Source: Carcharhinus longimanus
Lineage: Eukaryota
Direction: 5' to 3'
NCBI GenBank assembly: GCA_030264375.1
Contig: JASCQW010000122.1
Location: forward strand, 22,960,517 to 23,024,516
DNA length: 64,000 nucleotides
Below the pieces are notes generated by a model. It was not told the origin of the DNA. It ran no database searches and worked only from the letters and a program-made list of their open reading frames with translations. Positions within the stretch are counted from its first letter, which is position 1. Each line of letters opens with the position of its first letter. Below, piece by piece: positions 984 through 24,200 of the stretch. A program made the position numbers and the translations under genes.

Positions 984-2610
984 TCTACTGTTTTGGTTGC
1001 ACCAGAAATATGTAAGTATATTTATTTGTTATTTCTAACATTCTCTGCACTTGCAAGGAACAGATTTTAAACATCCCAACCATGAGATTTTCAATTCCCC
1101 ACAAGAATCAACCTCCAGCTAAAGAACATAAAGTGTGTGAATGTGTGAACTAAGGCCTAATGAATCAACACTGTATGTACGAGCTTTTCAACTTGCCCGC
1201 TGATCCACTTATAGTACTGAGCCCAGTCCCGTTCAGCAGCATTGCAATTCAAAAGCTGAACTGTAGCGTTAGGGTCGATGCTTATAAGGCCAGTTTGAAT
1301 GCCTTGTAGCCATCGCTTACCAATGGCAACATGCAATACAATAAAATATAGGTTGAAGAGATTTGCTGCTCCATCATTGGGTTAGCTTCAGGTGATCAAA
1401 TGAATTAATTTCTGCCTGGTTGTTTTAATTTGCCCAGCAGAAAACTACCACATCTTTCTCTGAAAGCTCATTAATAAGCCTCAATATGCAAATAAACCAA
1501 CTTTACTCTCTTTTGGGAGGTGCAAAATATAGATGCATATAAACTATTTGAAGTACTACTAACTTAACACTATGGTTACTAGCTCTTTAGGTTCTGAATC
1601 CAGATTTAGTTCTACTTTCAAGCCTGTCTCTCCCCAAACCCCCCACCGACAATTCCGCGAGTTCCTTTATCTTGAAAAATCGCTTTCCATGGCAAACAGG
1701 TTAGGTTTTAATTGTAATTAACCCAAGTTTGTTTGATTTGCATTTACTTCAGGGTTGTTTCCACAAATACTCAATCAGACTTCCCATTTATTTTACATTT
1801 AACACTTTAATCTCCAACCTAAATCTTGTATTCCTAAAACTAAACATTGTGCTATNNNNNNNNNNNNNNNNNNNNNNNNNNNNNNNNNNNNNNNNNNNNN
1901 NNNNNNNNNNNNNNNNNNNNNNNNNNNNNNNNNNNNNNNNNNNNNNNNNNNNNNNNNNNNNNNNNNNNNNNNNNNNNNNNNNNNNNNNNNNNNNNNNNNN
2001 NNNNNNNNNNNNNNNNNNNNNNNNNNNNNNNNNNNNNNNNNNNNNNNNNNNNNNNNNNNNNNNNNNNNNNNNNNNNNNNNNNNNNNNNNNNNNNNNNNNN
2101 NNNNNNNNNNNNNNNNNNNNNNNNNNNNNNNNNNNNNNNNNNNNNNNNNNNNNNNNNNNNNNNNNNNNNNNNNNNNNNNNNNNNNNNNNNNNNNNNNNNN
2201 NNNNNNNNNNNNNNNNNNNNNNNNNNNNNNNNNNNNNNNNNNNNNNNNNNNNNNNNNNNNNNNNNNNNNNNNNNNNNNNNNNNNNNNNNNNNNNNNNNNN
2301 NNNNNNNNNNNNNNNNNNNNNNNNNNNNNNNNNNNNNNNNNNNNNNNNNNNNNNNNNNNNNNNNNNNNNNNNNNNNNNNNNNNNNNNNNNNNNNNNNNNN
2401 NNNNNNNNNNNNNNNNNNNNNNNNNNNNNNNNNNNNNNNNNNNNNNNNNNNNNNNNNNNNNNNNNNNNNNNNNNNNNNNNNNNNNNNNNNNNNNNNNNNN
2501 NNNNNNNNNNNNNNNNNNNNNNNNNNNNNNNNNNNNNNNNNNNNNNNNNNNNNNNNNNNNNNNNNNNNNNNNNNNNNNNNNNNNNNNNNNNNNNNNNNNN
2601 NNNNNNNNNN

Positions 2611-2686
2611 GAGAGTGAGACAGAGAGTGAGACAGAGAGTGAGACAGAGAGTGAGACAGAGAGTGAGACAGAGAGTGAGACAGAGA
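2611..2686 (+). repeat. (GAGAGTGAGACA)n 12-mer tandem repeat running into a gap
   Basis: About six perfect units directly after the 1856-2610 N-run. Confidence 0.95.
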
Positions 2687-2689
2687 GCA

Positions 2690-4730
2690 GCCATTGTTGC
2701 ATGCGCAATCCAAACAGCAGGCATGTGCACATGCTGAGTACATGGTGCCAGACTGCAGGCACGCATGAGGGTGCCACAGACAAAAGCACACATGCGAGGC
2801 ATCAGACAAGCATGCCCACGAGGCGTCACAGACGAGAGCGAAACAGCGTGCACGAGAGTGCCACAGAGCGAGAGAGCGTGCACGAGGATGCCAAAAAGCA
2901 GGACGGTGTCCGAGCATGAGAGCACGCACAAGGGTGCCAGAGAGCGCGAGCGTGCCAAGGAGCAGGAGCATATGGGAGAGTGAGCGAGAACACAAGCGTC
3001 AGGGAGTGAGAGGGAGTGAGCGAGTATGCCCAAGAGCAGGCACGTGCGCGAGTCAGAAAGCAGGCGTCACTGCGCGGGTGAGCCAGAGAGCAGGCGCTCA
3101 CACACTGAGGGTGCAACAGATAAGAGTAAGTCTGCACGAGGTGATACAGATGAGTGTGCATGCCTGCAGGGTGCCACAGGCGAGAGCATGCGTGCACGCA
3201 TAGCCACAGATGAGAACGTGTGCAAACTGCCACAGACAACAGCATGCACACACGTGCGAGGTACCACAGACAAGGGTGTGTGCGTGAGCTGCCACATATG
3301 AGTGCGCACGCCTGCAGTGCCAGAGATCACAGCACGCGTGCGAGTTGCTGGAGACGAGAGCGTGTGCGCAAGGGTGCCACAGAACGAGGTAGAGCGTGTG
3401 CGAGGGTGCCACTAAGCAAAGGAGCACCAAGGGTACCACGGAGCGCGCAAGTGAGCGTGCTCTCGCACACAAGGGTGCCACAGAATGAGCGAGAGAGAGA
3501 GGGAGAGAGAGAGAGAGAGAGAATGCTCACGTGCGAGGGTGCCACAGATCAAGAGAGAGAGAACGTGCAAAGGTACCAGGGAGAGAGCGAGGGTACAACA
3601 GAGTACGAGAGGGTGCCACGGAGTGACAGTAAGACAGCACCATCGTGCATGAGGATGCTACAGAGCGAGCAAGAGAGGGAGCGAGAGAAAATGCACACCA
3701 GGCCACAGAACGAGCAGGAGGGCGCGTGAGGGTGCCACAGAATGAGCGAGACACAAAATGCGCACTCACGCACGAGGGTGCCACAGAACGAGTGAGAGAG
3801 CGCGCTCACGCACGAGGGTACCACAGAACGAAAGAGAGAGAGCGCACTCGCGTACAACAGTGCCACAGAACGAGCGAGAGAGAGCGTGCACTCCTGCGCG
3901 AGGGTGCCACAGAACAAGTGAGAGAGCGCGAGCATTCACGGACAAGGGTGCAGAGACACAGAGGGCGCAAGCGAGCGCTCACATGCGAGGGTGCCACAGA
4001 ACAAGCGAGAGAGCGCGCTCGCACGCAAGGATGTCACAGAACGAGTGCGTGCACAAGGGTGCCCCAGAACGAGCAAGAGACCACGCGAGGGTACCACAGA
4101 ACGAGAGCGCGCTCACGCGTGAGGGTGCCACAGAACAAGCCAAGAGAGAGGGTGCTTGCGCACAAGGGGTGCCACAGAACGAGCAAGAGAGAGAGACAGA
4201 GAGCACTCGCACGCGAGGGTGCCACAGAACGGGCAAGAGAGAGCATGCTCACACGCAAGTGTGCCACAGAACGAGAGAGTGCGCTCATGTGCGAGGGTGC
4301 CATAGAATGACCAAGACCACGTGAGGGTGCCACAAAATGAGCAAGAGATTGCAGGAACGAGCGAGAGACCGCACGAGAAAGAGCAGGTGAAGGTGCCACA
4401 GAATGACAGATCGTGCGCTCGTGCATGAGGGTACCAGAAAAAGAAAACGCGCACGCTCGGGTGCCACAGAACAAGCAAGAGCCCACGTGAGGATGCCACA
4501 GAACGAACAAGAGCGTGCTCACATGCCAGGGTGCCACAGGACGAGCAAGAGAGCGCACTCACACGCGAGGGGGCCATAGAACGAGGATTCGCGCGCGAAG
4601 GTGCTACAGAACAAGCTTGAGTGCGCGCGAGGGTGCCACAGAACGAGCGGGTGAGTGCACTCATGCGTGAGGGTGCCACAGAACAAACGAGTGTACTGGC
4701 ACACGAGGGTGCCACAAAATGAGACAAAGC
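2690..4730 (+). repeat. Diverged CpG-rich minisatellite, ~40-bp unit, roughly 50 copies, core GAGGGTGCCACAGAACGAG
   Basis: Core recurs about every 35-45 bp (e.g. ~3774, 3814, 3900, 3988, 4122, 4215), linked by GA/GC/CA dinucleotide-rich variable segments. Source of the many overlapping spurious ORFs. Confidence 0.93.
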
Positions 4731-5310
4731 ACCCGAGCCAGCAGAGTGAGGCGCACACGGGTGCCACTGACCCAGCCGCTGCAGGCACAAGCGTGCACAC
4801 CAGGGCACCAGCGGAAGTGGGGAGCGATCACACACGCCAGGGGGAGCGGGGTGGGAGCGCACACAATAGAGTACCAGTGGGGAGCGGGGCGCAGGGCGCG
4901 CATGCACCAGGGGGAGAGAGGCACGACACCAGGGTGGGGAGTGCACACGCCAGAGCGCCACTGAGCCAGGGGGAGTGGGGAGTGGGGCGTGACACCGGGG
5001 AAGCGGGAAGCGGACACGCCAGGCGCCACTGAGCCAACAGGAGCAGGGTGCGGGGCGGGTGTGCCAGGACACCGAGCAAGCACGTGCATGCAAGCCAGAG
5101 GGAGAATGTACATACGAACCAGAGCAAAAGCACACACCAGAGAGAATGCTCGTGCGAGAATGTGTGCACGTGCGAGAGTGAGAGAGACAGACAGCATGTG
5201 TGTGAACGTATGTAAGCAGTGTGAGAGGGAGTGTGAGAGACTAAGAGTGTGCGAGTGAGATTGTGCAAGCGCATATGAGAGGGAGAGGGAGAGGGAGTGA
5301 GAAAGAGTAA
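4731..5310 (+). repeat. G-rich degenerate repeat (cacacgccagggggag...gggg) grading into a decayed GA/GT microsatellite
   Basis: Repeated cacac(g)ccaggg / gtggggag motifs at 4790-5070, and GA/GT-rich tract at ~5130-5310. Confidence 0.75.
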
Positions 5311-7226: not shown

Positions 7227-7359
7227 CTGTTTTGGGGTCCACATCTGCTGGTAAGTGTGGTGGAGGGTTACCTGGTGTGAAGTGTTCATTGCTGTATGTT
7301 ATCAGTGGCGTTAACGGGTGGACGTGATGGGGATGTTGCACAACGGGTACTTTGTTAGA
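7227..7359 (-). CDS. TCF7L2: Internal coding exon of transcription factor 7-like 2 (equivalent of mammalian exon 6; context-dependent regulatory region upstream of the HMG box)
   Basis: Minus strand reads ...ctttcttttggcag|TCT AAC AAA GTA...CCC AAA ACA G|gtaggt. Length 133 bp, phase 0 in, phase 1 out. Translation [44 protein letters not shown](G) matches the TCF7L2 peptide as I know it; HHVHP and [18 protein letters not shown] distinguish it from TCF7L1, LEF1 and TCF7. Missed by the ORF track, which lists another frame. Confidence 0.97.
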
Positions 7360-16300: not shown

Positions 16301-17631
16301 TAATAAAATATCAGCTTTAAAATGTTCGTTTTATTTGTTCTGGTGGTATGTTCAGAACATCTGGCACTAATTTTGTTCATAGCAGGGAAAAGACAGCCCC
16401 ACAGCAGTGGAATACATATACAAATGAAAACCTCAACCTATATACATATTTAAGAAAAACATCAGGATTTGTTTTTAAATCCAATCAGAACGCATAATAT
16501 TAGACCAAATCGTCATTTGGGTACATTCTAAAATATCATTGAATGGAAGGCTTTTGTTACACCACCCCACAGTGTACAAAAACATGCCAAAACCTCAAAA
16601 GTGAGGTTTTCCTGCAAACTCAAAAAGACTGTTCAGAAATGCTCCACATTTTCCTTTATAAGCATTTAAGAAAATCTTTCGCTCCCTCGCAAAAACCTAA
16701 ATGAAAATGAGCACATTCGAGAACACCAACTTGCTGTCTACAAGATTCTACAATTACCTGTTATATCTGAAGTGTGCCACGCTTCTAATAATTTATTTAA
16801 GCCTTTTTTTTTAAAACATACACTTCAAATAAGTTAACCTTCAATATAGCAAATCATTGCGTGCAATCTGGTCAGCAATAACGGATAATGTATTTAAGGT
16901 TTTAAAGAGAAAGAATATAGGGCAGGGAGTAAATTATTCTATAGTGTTAGCAATACTTCTTTTGAATACGTAAAGCATTTTTGTTGAAAATGATAAATTA
17001 AAACACTGTGCTTTTTAGGATTCAACGGAAGATAATGTAACAGTTAATTAAGAAAAAATACAACCTTTTCTCTACCTACATCCTTCAAAATGACATACAT
17101 TAATTTTTATTTAAAAAGTCTCTGTTATATATTTGGTTTTGTACATCACTTGCACACTGTTGCTTTCAAAATAGCTTCGACAATTGAGCCACGGAAGCAA
17201 CTCTACCTCCAGACATTTGAGTATATTTCACTTAAATTTTGGAAGTTAAATTTAACTAAATGAAAGCATGACAGTGGAATGTCGGAATTAATCAGGTACA
17301 GTGCTAAAATGTAAATTCTGCACTGAAATCTGAGTGCAGAATATCCAATAGTAAGCAGCTATCGAGAAAAATAAATCAGTATTGAGCTGGTTAAATCAAC
17401 TTTTTTGAAGAAATCCCAATGTCATGCTGCCTGCAATTGGATTTTCCTTTTTTGTTTCTTCTTCACAGACAGATTCTTCTGAAAGCGGCAACACAAAGGT
17501 CACAGTTTCAAGTATTGGATAGAAGGTCGCTTGCCTTAACTGACCACCTCTTAACCACAGTAACTGGCCTTATCTGAAGCCCATCGAGTGAAATAAAACA
17601 CAAACGTGCACTGTAGCATATGGTAACTTAC

Positions 17632-17754
17632 CCAGCTGTTTAGATTGAGATGCCAGCAACCAAACTGATGGAGAAAGGAGAACCCAGAGGCTAGCGTTCC
17701 TCCTTTATTGTTCCCTTCTTCCATTCCCAGCAAAATCGCATCCCTCGGGTACAT
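17632..17754 (-). CDS. TCF7L2: Candidate alternative first coding exon D of TCF7L2 (41 aa: MYPRDAILLGMEEGNNKGGTLASGFSFLHQFGCWHLNLNSW)
   Basis: agcagc-ATG (A at -3) at 17754, 123 bp = 41 codons, ending TGG|GTAAGT (plus acttac 17626-17631). Perfect donor in phase 0, in frame with the 7359 acceptor, with a purine-rich UTR-like leader upstream. Confidence 0.65.
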
Positions 17755-19684
17755 GCTGCTTTATCTTCTGTTGTCTCTTAACCTCTACAACTTTTCCCCC
17801 CTTTCTTTCTTGCCTTGGTGCCGACTGCGCTTTGTGTCTTCGTGGTTTTCCTAGCGTCTTTTTTTCTCTTAAAAAAGTACTAAAAAAAATGTCTCAAAAG
17901 ATCAAAAGCTTTCCATTTCTGTGGCCTGGTGTTTTTAGAACCAACATTCTCATTCAAGTTTGCCGTTAGTAACATCTTAGTCCTGGTGTAGTCCTCTGTC
18001 TGCCGTGTAGCAGGTACCAAAATTTAGGACACACTCAAATGATAACATAGATCACTGCACCAAAACGCTCACTTAGAAATGAGTAAGCCCGCACACAGGG
18101 GTATAACCCCATGCGTACTATTTATTTTCTTTTCAAAGCCTACAACTCTCCTAGGATTACCAAAATGACAATGCTGCAACTCTATATGGAAAGGTATCAA
18201 TAAGTGCAGCAGCAAGGAGACAAGCATTGGTTAAGGGAGCATGATCAACAAACTGTAGCATGCAGTCACATCTGTGGGAATGTCAAACCCCTCACGCTGA
18301 ACTTCTGGGGGTAGAGTTGCAAGAATGCTCTATTTTCTTTGACACGGTGACACTATAATATATCTCACGCACACAGACTCATATACATACAAATATATAA
18401 AAATATATGTTTAAAAAAAAGACACCTGTGAGGTCTTGCCATCAGTCCCAGCAGGTTTTTTTTAATTACAACAGTAAACAGGGTGGAGAAAAGGCAAAGC
18501 ACTAGACCTCACTGCAGCTTCTACTGGCTGACCTCAGCTACACACAATATACAAGAGCAGCTTTTGTATTACAAGGATTCTCTTTCCGAGTTGCTCTTTG
18601 CATACTGCTTCCCGTCGCTAATTGCATCCCCAAACAAAACCCTCTCCATCTCCAAATTGGGGGCAGCTCATATGTTCCAGAAAATGCTTTTCACAATGGA
18701 AGCAAAAAGTAATGAAATGTTCCCATTAACCACGCTCACCCCCCCCCCAACACCCCCTCCCACCCCTCCACCATGAATATAGGTGGCATAAAGCCCACGA
18801 TACCCTCCCACCAACCAAAAAAAACTCAACTTTTTAAAAACAAACTTTACAGGCATTCAGTTTTCTTAAAAATATAAAGTCGTTCAGTAGGCTCTGCAGA
18901 AGATGCCACATACTTTTCCTTCCCGTCTATCTGCCTGATCAGAAAAGTGACAAGACACGAGAACAGGGGAAACAAAACACTGTGCGGTTTTTTCCCTCTT
19001 TATTTCGTGCTCTGCACTAATCTGGCCTTCGCGTGCAAAGTGTCGGCCAGAAATCTTTAAGGCCTTAATACCAAAACAAAACCTTTGAATTCCCTTTATA
19101 TGGTGCAATACAGGCGCTAACAAAGGCAATGAGGCTACAGTTTGACATATAAAAAGCCCAACAACGAGGCAGCTAATTACATTCCCTCCCTCTATTCATG
19201 GTGGCCACCACACTCCAGCAGCTTCTTTTGTCACACGTGCAATTTCTTAAGTAAACTGGGAGTTTGGTTGCTGATGATGGACAGTTACTAATCATTTAGC
19301 ACAATGAACGCTAAGTGCGACAGAAAGGATGGGCAACTTCAACACAGATTTCTTTGGGATTGGAGGATGTGAGAAGAAAAAAAAAGGAGCGGGGTGGGGG
19401 CGGTGGAAGCTCGCCACACAGACGACGAAAGGTGAACACTTAAAATGCCAGATCCTTTCAGTTCACATATTTACCTTGCATCTACTGGGGGAGGGGAATC
19501 AAGCCCAAGACAGGAAGGGGTGACAAGCTGTCTTGTCAGCTTGGATCGGGAATGTCTCACTCGTTGAGACTTTGNNNNNNNNNNNNNNNNNNNNNNNNNN
19601 NNNNNNNNNNNNNNNNNNNNNNNNNNNNNNNNNNNNNNNNNNNNNNNNNNNNNNNNNNNNNNNNNNNNNNNNNNACATATTTAC

Positions 19685-19747
19685 CTTGCATCTACTGGGG
19701 GAGGGGGGAGGCCGGGGGGGAGTTGGTGGAGGGAAAGGCAAAAACAT
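19685..19747 (-). CDS. Weak candidate alternative first coding exon C (MFLPFPPPTPPRPPPSPSRCK)
   Basis: ATG at 19747-19745, 21 open codons, then AAG|GTAAAT donor in phase 0. Low-complexity, next to a gap, and the donor region is duplicated at 19465-19496. Confidence 0.3.
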
Positions 19748-20016
19748 GCTGTGGGAAAGAGAGACTGCAAATCAAACTTGCCAACTCCGATTAACTTCAG
19801 ACATTACATCAGGAACAGAATTCTAAATACTTCCATTACCCAATAGTTTTTTCGTTTCACTCCCCCCCCCCCTCAAACCACCAGAAAAGTTTTCCATAAA
19901 ATCTCAATTTAAAACAAAACACACACCAAAGCACAATTAACCTAAATGTCATATTAGTCAATTGGAAAATAATGCTTTCGAGCATTCAGTCCTTCTTAAA
20001 AATTTTGCTAACTTAC

Positions 20017-20200
20017 CATTTACACCTGCTCAAATTACGATGCTTCACACTGCCTGAATTCAAACATGCTGCCGTTCCTGTGCTACAGCATAAAATCAGC
20101 CGGCTCTTTGCGATGTGGGCAGATCCACTGGGGGGCAGCACCCTACCTGAGCCACTTACAGCCGAGATGCTGCTGAGATAGGGACACGAAGCGATTACAT
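20017..20200 (-). other. TCF7L2: Candidate internal alternative first exon B of TCF7L2 (ends in ATG)
   Basis: Plus aacttac|catttacacc is minus GGTGTAA-ATG|GTAAGTT: second perfect ATG|GTAAGT (ATG 20019-20017), in-frame TAA immediately before it, phase 0. Kozak context weaker (T at -3). The 5' boundary is a guess. Confidence 0.55.
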
Positions 20201-20880
20201 CCAACTCCAGCTCTCCAGGAAAAGATGCTCAAGTTCAGGTCTATTCAGTGAATTACCTTGCTTCATGGGAAAGAGATAATGAGATGGCAGCACTCATTTG
20301 ATCAGAACCAGCCCCAAAAATCACACCAACAGTTTTCAGAGAGGAACAAAAGAACAACAGTTGCTTGCTTTCTTGGCGACATTAAAACCAGTTGCAGCCT
20401 CCCATAATGTTAAATTGGCTGGTATTTTTGAAGCCAGACCAGAGAGAGAGAGAGAGAGACATACAAAAAAAAGTAGTTCCTCCCCCCCACCACTCCCCCC
20501 GCCTCCCGCAAGGTACATAAAGGCTAAACCTACCGTTTATTTTGCCCACATAGCCAGCTCAGTTTAATCACGACCGCCGGGGAATGCTGAACTATGAAAT
20601 GATTTTGATACATCAATTCAAAGTTTCTTTTTTAAACAAAAAAAAGGCAACTTAGCAAGTTGTGTATCTGAGCTCTAATATTTGCCACAGCCAAATGTGG
20701 CAAGCGGTTCCATAAAGCTTCCCTGCCCACTTTTGAAGCCTGCGTTACTAACACACGCAGAATGACACCACTGAGCGCCTTTAAAGGATACTAGGGAAAA
20801 AAAATGACTATTGATCTTCAAATGGTGATAATTGAAAAGATCAAAAGATTAAACAAAATCAAAAAAATGCGCTGACTTAC

Positions 20881-21150
20881 CATGTTATGCTTTTTTTTGT
20901 TACAACTTGGTTGAAATTTCAGTCAAACAAGCTTCATCGGAGATGTCAAATTTTTGGCGGACTGTGATCGTATTACTTCCGCAGCCTTGCCTCACAATAC
21001 TTCAGAACTTTTTACCTAGCTTTGGTTTACTTTGAAAGCTGCAGCTCAGCAAACCAGCACAAATTATCTTGCCACCTTCTACAGCTCTGATGCTTTGGCC
21101 GCTAACTTTGGAAGGCCCTTTACTACTGCATCAAAATTAGCATTGTCAAA
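20881..21150 (-). other. TCF7L2: Candidate internal alternative first exon A of TCF7L2 (5' UTR plus start codon only; gives M-SNKVPVV...)
   Basis: Plus gacttac|catgttatgc is minus GCATAAC-ATG|GTAAGTC: perfect donor directly after an ATG (20883-20881), A at -3, phase 0 matching the 7359 acceptor. The 5' boundary is a guess. Confidence 0.7.
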
Positions 21151-21270
21151 GCGGTTAATGAATATTAATACTGTATTTGTCATTGGAGCTGGCCTGATGC
21201 TGAACTCCGAGCCATCCATCAGGGACAAGATTAAGAACACAATTATTTCTGACTGACAGGGTCCAAATCT
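21130..21270 (-). promoter_or_regulatory. Candidate internal promoter upstream of exon A
   Basis: Position immediately 5' of the first ATG|GTAAGT exon. Clustered homeodomain cores (aaattag, gttaatgaatattaata, gattaa, aattat) and TGTCA/TGACA (TALE-type) motifs. Motif-level evidence only. Confidence 0.4.
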
Positions 21271-24200
21271 GCTAGATTTTTTTTGCAAATCTAAAAAAAA
21301 ATAAGAGACAAAAAAAAACATCTTATGGGTTCCCCCTGGGGACGAACAGTCAGATTAATACACTTTTAATGAAGTGAAGGCTATTAAGTATGAAGAAAAA
21401 GCAAACAAGATGTACAAGTCGAACTTACAAATGCGGCACGGTGGCTGATAAAAATTAAAAGAATGGCATATCTTTTTCGACAGCTGTCTGAAATTTTTCT
21501 TCAGAGCTTTCTGGAATGAAGAAAGAATCTTTCTTCCCAATTCTGCATCATTTGAATAAGGAATGCACTGTTATAACCCACATGGGATAATTGTGTCTAT
21601 CTTGTGTCTTAACAACATCAACTCAAAGGCAGGATCCTAAATAATTCCTACACAAATATTATAATCAACACTTCCTTAAAAGCAATTGACAATCATGATT
21701 ATTCTCTCAATTGGATCTGCATGCTGCTAAAAATACTTTAAAAAAATGTACGCCAAATATACTTTGTGCAGACTTTACGATACCATAATATACGTTGCGA
21801 AAAATTATCCCGCTGTTATAAAAGACCAAACTTAAAACACATTTAGAACAGCGTCCTAACCTTTCAACGCTGACGGTTTCTGTGGGAATTTAAGGAGAGT
21901 CATAAACATCGGCAGCAAAAGGCAACTTAGTTCAACCATGTTTCTATAGTTGCCTTCGCAGCTAAATATCACTAAAATTCCCTGCGTGTAAAGTCATGCT
22001 ACATGTCTTGATCTCACATAACTGAACTATAAACACCCAGCAAACATCCTTTGCCGCTACTCATATTTACTTTCTCCCCGCCTCTCTCAAGCTTTTAGGA
22101 ATTCCCAATACACNNNNNNNNNNNNNNNNNNNNNNNNNNNNNNNNNNNNNNNNNNNNNNNNNNNNNNNNNNNNNNNNCATAACGGGAGACGGTGGAAAGG
22201 TTCAGATGCAGATTTAAAGAACGACGACTATTTGGGCTAAAGTCATTTGAATGGCAAACCCAAAAAAAAAGTGTTTTGAATTTCCTCGGCCACCCCTACA
22301 AAGAATAACCCCAATGCACCAGAAACGGGAAGTGTAGCATTGGTCCTTTCCTTGCTCACAGGACTCGGTTTCCTTTCTCTACTGTTTTAAAACCTATTAA
22401 AGCTATTTTCTTTAAACGGCGATTTGGGAAGGGAGGAGAAAGAGGTGGAAGATAAGGGGGGAAAAAAAAGAGAAAACTGACAGATGCGACAGTTAATGCC
22501 ATCTGACCAGTGAAATGAGGGGGTCTGGGTCAAGCGACTATGGCTGCCAAGCTAATCTACTGCTCTCACTGACCACCCCACTGGCTGCTCCTAATACCAT
22601 TAGCAATCCTTAGATGAACATTCTAAATTGGAGTTTTGTCCTCTGATGAGCCAATCTGACCCCGCTGAAACAACCCTGGAGCTTCATGTGCAGATGGCAA
22701 ATCTCCTGAAAACATTTCTTTCAGCTTTAAGATTTTTTTTCCCTTGCCCGCTTTCTTTTGTCTTGCTCAATCCTTTTCGCCCCTCTCCGATTTGAGATAA
22801 AACATTGCAAAAGCACAAAAATATGCCTGTTTATCTAACCCGGTTACTGGTGCCATTTCACTTTAGAAGTGCACCCTGAAACATTTTCGAACAATCCATT
22901 GTTGGTGGGTTTTCATTTAGCTTGGTCATTGTGCAAATTACTTTAACTCGCTCCTGAAAAAAAAAGAGGGGAGCGAGGAAAAGAGAAATTGGAGGGTGTT
23001 TGTGAAAACTGTCAGGTTTGAAGCTTTCTAACCAAGTGAAGTTAGAGGCTGCTGACTCTGAAGCAGTGGGTGCAGAAAGCATTTGCCTGACAGAACATTT
23101 ACCGCAGACAGCTCCCGCTACCTCTACTTACACAGCACGATCACATCAGCCTGAGTATCAAATTAACTCACTGACTTTGAAAGTTATTGATCTGCTATTA
23201 AGACACTAGTGAACTTGATGAAATCAGTGCTGTAGGTGCAGTGAAGACTTCAAAGTCTCGCACAGACACATAAAACAAGTTTCTTTGATCCTTTTTACGA
23301 TCCGCAGAGGGTTTAAAGCCCAATTCTCGATGTGCTGCTCTTCACACTCGTCAGGTCTGATTTTTTTTTACCAATAGACAGCTTGATAATGTTAATAGTG
23401 CATATTTTAGCAAACAACTAATTCTAAACCAATATCTTAATCTGTTCAGACTAACAGCATAATTTATTAAAACATGTCAAACAAAAACCAATTTTACCTT
23501 TATTGCTGTCTGCACTGCAGGAGTCAGGAATTTTCAATGNNNNNNNNNNNNNNNNNNNNNNCCGTATCTACACCAGTATTTTATCATTAAGGAGATGATT
23601 AATTGGCACAGACTTACGAAATCCTTATTTGAAGGACTTTAATAACACTAACATAACAGCAGTGTTGGTATTGGAAAAGCAACAAAGACATTAAGAAGTT
23701 CAAGTAGAGAGTAAAAAAGGATTCAAGTAGGAAACTGCTTCATTAGATTCGGAAATGATTTTACAATAACAAAAAAAAATTGAAATACAAACCTCAGTAT
23801 GATAAAATGGCCCACAGATTAGAGCTCAGATCACTCACTGGGAACCACAATTATTTCTTCTGCACCAAACACACATGCCAACTTGAAAAATTAACCTTAT
23901 TGGTCAGAAAGATACTTAAATTGCAATTCAAAATTTTTGCACACATTTGTAAAAGACAAATAAATCAACTACTTTTTTTATACAAAAATCTGCTACACTA
24001 ATCCTGTTCTTAATTTTAACTATTAAGAGGATACTAGCTGTGGATGCTAATATTTGAGTTTTGAAGGATTGCATTTATTGTAAAATGTATTCAGTCAAAG
24101 TGACAATTTATGTCGACAAAAAAAATCCATTCTGTTAATTATGAGAAATAGAAAGTACTATAAACAAAATTTTTTAAAAAATCAACTGCAAGAGCCTTCA

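What the first reader, a model, noticed from the sequence alone, without database searches (positions are those of the whole stretch)
20011..20890. Two separate 'start-codon-only' exon ends (ATG|GTAAGT) 864 bp apart
The exact 9-mer acttaccat (plus strand) occurs at 20011-20019 and 20875-20883. A given 9-mer is expected about once per 260 kb at uniform composition, so two within 0.9 kb on the gene's strand is notable. Both would give the identical protein M-SNKVPVV..., so the redundancy would be purely regulatory (different promoters or 5' UTRs). Kozak contexts differ (AAC-ATG versus TAA-ATG), and the +4 base is supplied by splicing.
Basis: partly seen in the sequence, partly recalled or inferred. 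Interest (0 to 1): 0.7.

Follow-up and report, generated by a model that had tools for sequence, protein, structure and literature searches.

The report
TCF7L2 short-isoform alternative first exons
These two motifs are splice donors inside a large intron of the Wnt-pathway gene TCF7L2 of what is likely a shark or ray; one is spliced in a related species and the other likely is, and they would start the short, beta-catenin-blind form of the protein already known from the mouse brain, so this is an old conserved feature rather than a new one.

Summary
Confirmed in sequence, but already known. The window is the minus-strand TCF7L2 gene, mostly the 67.5-kb intron between exons 5 and 6. The two ATG|GTAAGT sites (exon ends 20017 and 20881) are the only ones in 64 kb. 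With a third donor at 17632 they are the only three G|GTAAGT on the gene strand, all in phase with exon 6. A putative-RNA contig of a related species joins 20017 exactly to exon 6. Donor 20881 was not seen spliced (0 of 4 runs), and a distant locus keeps the upstream element without that donor nearby. The 17632 exon encodes 41 residues conserved from skates to mammals. Proteins starting Met-exon 6 are annotated in zebrafish, birds and mammals (14 of 525). This matches the published intron-5 promoter (Ex1b-e; at least 10 first exons in mouse brain) for dominant-negative/short TCF7L2. The paired 9-mer alone is weak statistically. Separate promoters were not testable. The scan's earlier notes hold no TCF7L2 entry.

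The parts
20017..20381 (-). First-exon candidate A. Ends in ATG (20019-20017) directly behind an in-frame TAA; donor GTAAGT from 20016; intron of 12,657 nt to exon 6. Five upstream ATGs, all closed by stops before the donor. 5' end unknown (20381 is only where the contig stops).
   Evidence: contig of run X1 lies 20381-20017 and its 27-nt loose end equals the first 27 nt of exon 6 (checked); uATGs
20881..21028 (-). First-exon candidate B. Ends in ATG (20883-20881), A at -3; donor GTAAGT from 20880; would give an intron of 13,521 nt. Upstream boundary unknown; splicing not shown.
   Evidence: sequence; X6 contig covers 20886-20638 unspliced with no listed change at the donor; weak conservation 21013-20923, 76%
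21029..21374 (-). Deeply conserved element upstream of donor B; likely promoter/enhancer or 5' UTR. 10 TAAT/ATTA cores.
   Evidence: 85% over 355 columns to L017; 180 of 191 identical over 21270-21080, 71-nt exact run; 87.5% at amino-acid level to three bird gene predictions; TAAT/ATTA 10 vs mean 4.0, reached by 6 of 164 tiles
19185..19310 (-). Further conserved block inside the cluster, role unknown
   Evidence: tblastn of tinamou prediction P0374, 60% over 43 codons, E 2.6e-10, with a stop in this window's frame
17632..17754 (-). Coding part of a third alternative first exon, 41 residues (MYPRD...LNSW), donor GTAAGT, phase 0; intron of 10,272 nt to exon 6
   Evidence: 90% identical to skate isoforms P0100 and P0373, 61-76% to amniotes; 32 of 525 retrieved proteins start MYPR; donor
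7227..7359 (-). Shared exon 6 of TCF7L2 (SNKVPVV...DPKT), 133 nt, acceptor for all the donors above and for exon 5
   Evidence: 133 nt equals the human span from c.484 to c.616

Best explanation
The two ATG|GTAAGT motifs are splice donors in intron 5 of TCF7L2, one shown spliced to exon 6 in a related species and the other likely so, and they likely end alternative first exons of the known internal promoter cluster that would make short TCF7L2 lacking the beta-catenin-binding domain. How it likely works: transcription starts inside the intron about 126 kb downstream of exon 1 (inferred). The first exon ends on the ATG and is spliced in phase 0 to exon 6 (shown for 20017), so the protein would begin M-SNKVPVV, about 161 residues shorter, with the HMG DNA-binding box intact (from gene structure). 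It would bind TCF sites without recruiting beta-catenin, as a repressor or as beta-catenin-independent extra dose in the embryonic diencephalon and midbrain (from mouse literature; not tested here). Exon 6 has no Met of its own at its start, so any first exon must bring an in-frame ATG; putting it at the last three bases adds nothing to the protein and doubles as the G of the donor. That explains the repeated 9-mer without a duplication (inference).
For: Gene identity and structure. Exact junction 20017 to 7359 in a contig of run X1, depth 54. All 3 G|GTAAGT of the gene strand fall within 3.25 kb and all 3 are in phase with exon 6. The third is an annotated first exon from skate to mammal. 14 of 525 retrieved TCF7L2-like proteins begin M-SNKV, from zebrafish, birds and mammals; in chicken, quail, zebrafish and mouse the same protein has two RefSeq accessions in sequence. 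Such proteins keep the HMG box and only positions 148-222 of PF08347. Literature: promoter upstream of exon 6, Ex1b-e, 35 kDa protein lacking the first 161 residues (PMC3468386, PMC3429047); at least 10 alternative exon 5' in mouse brain, removed by a ~6 kb deletion that abolishes dnTCF7L2 (PMC10208975).
Against: Donor 20881 was spliced in 0 of 4 runs laid; the only contig over it (X6, depth 5) is unspliced. 2 of 4 runs laid nothing. X1 is another species (90-95% alike) and its RNA nature is a guess. L017 keeps the upstream element but has no GGTAAGT anywhere in its 4,014 nt and no match to exon A or the 41-residue exon in the ~3.3 kb that follows. None of the 14 M-SNKV proteins is from a cartilaginous fish (listings are capped at 15 per cluster). 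Two accessions for one protein may differ in other untranslated parts. No start site was seen. The primary paper was not available, so exons were not mapped one to one.
Confidence: 0.8

Rival explanations
1. One promoter near the conserved element (21374-21029) makes one long first exon with alternative 5' splice sites at 20881 and 20017; the protein is the same and only 5' UTR length and uORF load differ.
For: X6 contig runs unspliced from 20886 to 20638, across donor B towards donor A. The best-conserved block lies upstream of both. Compatible with the best explanation on the protein; differs on 'separate promoters'.
Against: The X1 contig stops at 20381, though a repeat at 20432-20475 may cut it. 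X6 could be pre-mRNA or DNA (depth 5). Mouse literature speaks of several first exons.
Confidence: 0.3
2. Only 20017 is a real donor; 20881 is a chance or lineage-limited look-alike beside a conserved enhancer.
For: No spliced contig at 20881; donor absent from L017; chance of one extra copy in the window is not small.
Against: Perfect GTAAGT, in phase, A at -3, kept in organism B, about 40 nt below a conserved block; P about 0.01 for a second copy within 900 bp. L017 diverges abruptly about 40 nt before the site, so it may be interrupted rather than informative.
Confidence: 0.17
3. These are internal cassette exons of the full-length transcript; exon A would add premature stops and act as a poison exon lowering full-length TCF7L2.
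For: Stops in frame inside exon A. A pyrimidine run followed by AG lies near 20420. A mouse 'exon 5b' between exons 5 and 6 was once predicted.
Against: No loose end at the upstream side of the X1 contig. That paper found no support for exon 5b inclusion. Mouse long reads show exon 5' transcripts lack exons 1-5. A terminal ATG is not needed for a poison exon.
Confidence: 0.05

Closest known systems
dnTcf7l2 / S-TCF7L2 intron-5 promoter, Ex1b-e (Vacik, Stubbs, Lemke 2011; primary paper not held, seen only through passages of PMC3825142, PMC3429047, PMC3468386, PMC11969957)
   Same: Same gene, same intron, several first exons upstream of exon 6, product lacking the first ~161 residues (exon 6 starts at residue 162 in amniote and 163 in shark/ray proteins), a conserved element in the cluster.
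   Different: Found here in a likely cartilaginous fish; Vax activation, start sites and tissue not tested; which Ex1 matches which donor was not established.
Mouse Tcf7l2 alternative exons 5'-1 to -10 (Qi et al. 2023, PMC10208975; passages, one methods section, table S1 and supplement legends seen; figures not)
   Same: Cluster of several 5' splice sites within a few kb, all joined to exon 6.
   Different: Three clear donors by sequence here against at least 10 by long reads; the passages seen do not say which mouse exons end in ATG.
RefSeq/UniRef isoforms starting M-SNKV (mouse XP_006526957.1 and XP_006526958.1, chicken XP_040558186.1 and XP_040558187.1, zebrafish XP_073773497.1) and MYPRD (skate XP_055502842.1)
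   Same: Identical N-termini to those predicted here.
   Different: Predicted models; their first-exon DNA could not be fetched, so donor homology is not shown.
Short dominant-negative LEF1 from its intron-2 promoter (PMC3825142 passage)
   Same: Internal promoter giving a TCF/LEF protein without the beta-catenin-binding domain.
   Different: Paralogous gene, different intron.

Membership tests
dn/S-TCF7L2 alternative first exons | Lies in TCF7L2, in the intron between exons 5 and 6 | tested here: met
   Exon 5 ends at window-equivalent 74906, exon 6 starts 7359, intron 67,546 nt; this locus fits skate TCF7L2 better than the three paralogue loci
dn/S-TCF7L2 alternative first exons | Spliced to exon 6 (donor 20017) | tested here: met
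   27-nt loose end of X1 contig equals the start of exon 6; related species, one run
dn/S-TCF7L2 alternative first exons | Spliced to exon 6 (donor 20881) | tested here: inconclusive
   0 of 4 runs show it; one unspliced contig; contigs show presence, not absence
dn/S-TCF7L2 alternative first exons | Product lacks the beta-catenin-binding N-terminus and keeps the HMG box | tested here: met
   Exon 1 lies ~126 kb upstream, HMG exons downstream of exon 6; in-phase ATG; domain content of M-SNKV proteins
dn/S-TCF7L2 alternative first exons | Several first exons or donors clustered within a few kb | tested here: met
   3 of 3 gene-strand G|GTAAGT in 17632-20881; conserved blocks
dn/S-TCF7L2 alternative first exons | Transcription starts inside the intron | not testable with these tools
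   Only contigs were offered; they cannot show starts
dn/S-TCF7L2 alternative first exons | Conserved element activated by Vax homeodomain proteins | tested here: inconclusive
   Conserved TAAT-rich element present; identity with the published element and binding not tested; primary paper not held
dn/S-TCF7L2 alternative first exons | Expression limited to diencephalon and midbrain | not testable with these tools
   Runs carry no library or tissue record

The most novel reading that the evidence does not exclude
The cluster is an ancestral jawed-vertebrate set of plug-in starts for short TCF7L2: two Met-only exons that differ in Kozak strength and uORF load and so set protein dose, plus a 41-residue N-terminal exon conserved from skates to mammals that makes a third, functionally distinct TCF7L2 class rather than a plain dominant negative.
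Probability: 0.3. Interest if true: 0.45.

Novelty: already known. Interest (0 to 1): 0.22.

Why it matters
It would date the short-TCF7L2 promoter cluster to the last common ancestor of sharks and mammals and point to the conserved pieces worth mutating. TCF7L2 matters for forebrain patterning, autism-linked variants and type 2 diabetes, and whether the short form is an antagonist or a redundant dose buffer is debated (bioRxiv 10.64898/2025.12.27.696670, abstract and passages). The gain is incremental: the system, its product and its multiple first exons are published, and skate models already carry one of the exons.

Tried and rejected
Chance statistics of the paired 9-mer as evidence: weak. 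Local duplication: the region has one match in the genome, and the two sites share little beyond the 9-mer by eye; no formal repeat search was run. Structured RNA: 0 Rfam matches in 16500-23500. The 46-codon frame at 21219-21082 as a protein: no Pfam match; it ends in a stop here, and its conservation is at DNA level (71-nt exact run); the three bird proteins that use it are likely gene-prediction products (inference). No RNA holder was listed as RNA on record. No laying across the whole intron was obtained, so the junctions of donors 20881 and 17632 remain unshown by reads; runs X4 and X7 laid nothing; 4 of 24 listed runs were laid. Search for a shark or ray M-SNKV protein: 0 of 14 such proteins among 525, from capped listings. 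Primary paper and PMC3401628 not held. No primer list in the Qi methods section or text supplements; its figures S15 and 6d are pictures and may hold the exon map. Literature searches: N-terminal peptides, 0 papers; Vax2 + Tcf7l2 + internal promoter, 0; shark terms gave one TCF/LEF evolution paper whose searched passages do not mention the internal promoter; start-codon-only terms gave 43 papers, none of the 20 listed titles on TCF7L2. MaxEntScan was not available.

Full report
Observation. The 9-mer occurs twice in the 64 kb, at 20011-20019 and 20875-20883; on the minus strand both read ATG|GTAAGT. Shuffles give 0.64 expected and 16 of 100 reach two. A second copy within 900 bp has P about 0.01, but 56 distinct 9-mers recur that closely in 17001-23000.

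The gene. A six-frame scan finds the SNKVPVV exon on the minus strand at 7359. It is 133 nt with a normal acceptor and donor, matches PF08347 positions 148-191, and is 100% identical to many proteins named TCF7L2. Skate TCF7L2 P0201 maps exon by exon to the window's contig at 75-98% identity, better than to the three paralogue loci. Exon 5 ends at window-equivalent 74906, so the intron is 67,546 nt and everything from 7360 to 64000 is intron 5. Exon 1, with the beta-catenin-binding stretch, is about 126 kb upstream of the motifs, and the HMG exons are downstream of exon 6. The organism is likely a cartilaginous fish, judged by closeness to skate proteins.

The cluster. The gene strand has three G|GTAAGT in 64 kb: 20881, 20017 and 17632, all in phase 0 with exon 6. 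At 20017 the ATG follows an in-frame TAA. At 20881 the frame is open for 14 codons with no other Met. So both would give Met plus exon 6. The third ends a 41-codon frame starting at 17754 that matches annotated N-termini: 90% to skates and 61-76% to amniotes (13 of the first 120 proteins hit it; 32 of 525 start MYPR). It has no Pfam match. Conserved blocks also lie at 21374-21029 and 21013-20923 and 19310-19185.

RNA evidence. The run search listed 24 holders, none on record as RNA. Four were laid on 19900-21070. In X1 (related species, 90-95% alike, RNA status a guess) one contig of depth 54 lies on 20381-20017 and continues with 27 letters that are exactly the first 27 of exon 6. A spliced joint over 12.7 kb argues that it is RNA. 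This shows donor 20017 in use and the +4 base supplied by splicing. In X6 one contig of depth 5 covers 20886-20638 unspliced, with no listed change at the donor. X4 and X7 laid nothing. Donor 20881 is therefore not shown spliced. Exon A holds five upstream ATGs, all stopped before the donor; by the listed differences one of them (20091) is changed in X1.

Evidence against deep conservation of donor 20881. L017, the one locus confirmed among 599 candidate stretches, shares the upstream element (180 of 191 identical, 71-nt exact run) but stops matching about 40 nt before the donor. It has no GGTAAGT and no match to the rest of the cluster. It may have lost the donor or be interrupted; I could not tell.

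Annotated proteins. Of 525 retrieved sequences, 338 have exon 5 before SNKV, 32 start MYPR, 14 start M-SNKV, 123 have other N-termini and 18 lack the motif. The 14 come from zebrafish, chicken, king quail, song sparrow, rodents, bear and apes; none is from a shark or ray. Chicken, quail, zebrafish and mouse list the same protein under two consecutive accessions, which fits two 5' ends for one protein but does not prove it. These proteins keep the HMG box and lose PF08347 positions 1-147.

Literature. Vacik et al. 2011 was not held. Passages of reviews describe a promoter upstream of exon 6, named Ex1b-e, giving a 35-40 kDa dominant-negative protein without the first 161 residues (PMC3468386; PMC3429047), activated by Vax proteins (PMC11969957). 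PMC3825142 (passages and section 21) finds the truncated form abundant in embryonic mouse thalamus. PMC10208975 (passages, section 24, table S1, supplement legends) reports at least 10 alternative exon 5' by nanopore reads, about half of brain transcripts, and loss of dnTCF7L2 and of normal pup calls after a ~6 kb deletion. A 2025 preprint (abstract and passages) argues the short form is redundant with the long one in embryos. Passages of PMC6772062, PMC6908431, PMC7473649 and PMC9303524 added nothing on exon ends. None of the text seen states that the first exons end in ATG; searches for the N-terminal peptides found 0 papers.

Mechanism. Shown: location, phase, donor sequences, one junction, conserved blocks. 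Inferred: internal transcription start, use of donor 20881, translation from the terminal ATG, repressor or dose function, brain expression. Exon 6 opens without a Met, so each first exon must supply one; a terminal ATG does so with no added residues and gives the donor its G. Rivals are one long exon with two donors (0.3, overlapping with the main reading), a spurious second site (0.17) and poison cassettes (0.05).

Verdict. A real feature and the orthologue of a published system. Already known; interest 0.22. What remains open is the age of each donor and the role of the 41-residue exon. Earlier notes of this scan hold nothing on this place, this sequence or TCF7L2; the one note shown (LARP1) was not used.

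Noticed in passing
window 17754-17632 (-): Third alternative first exon coding 41 residues conserved from skates to mammals, with a weaker match in a carp prediction; no Pfam family and no paper found by peptide search.
   Followed up: partly
window 21374-21029 (-): Highly conserved TAAT-rich element. A 46-codon frame inside it is used by three bird gene predictions, probably wrongly.
   Followed up: partly
window 19310-19185 (-): Another conserved block, matched by a tinamou gene prediction; likely non-coding.
   Followed up: no
window 20160-20159, 20254-20253, 20147-20146 (-), approximate: Weaker donor-like sites inside exon A (GCT|GTAAGT, AAG|GTAATT, CAG|GTAGGG); not used in the one contig seen.
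   Followed up: no
window 20067-20035 (-): 10-codon uORF in the same frame as the main ATG, ending 15 nt before it.
   Followed up: no
window 19447-19480 and 19675-19700: The same ~25-30 nt appears on both sides of the 100-N gap at 19575-19674, suggesting a small assembly overlap inside the cluster.
   Followed up: no
window 61135 and 52803 (-): Two more ATG-ending donor-like sites (ATG|GTGAGT, ATG|GTAAGA) far upstream in the intron; no evidence of use.
   Followed up: no
L017:690-4014: Similarity to the window ends abruptly about 40 nt before donor 20881; part of what follows looks retroelement-like by eye.
   Followed up: no
window 2600-5300: Long low-complexity repeat array next to a 755-N gap, in intron 6.
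   Followed up: no
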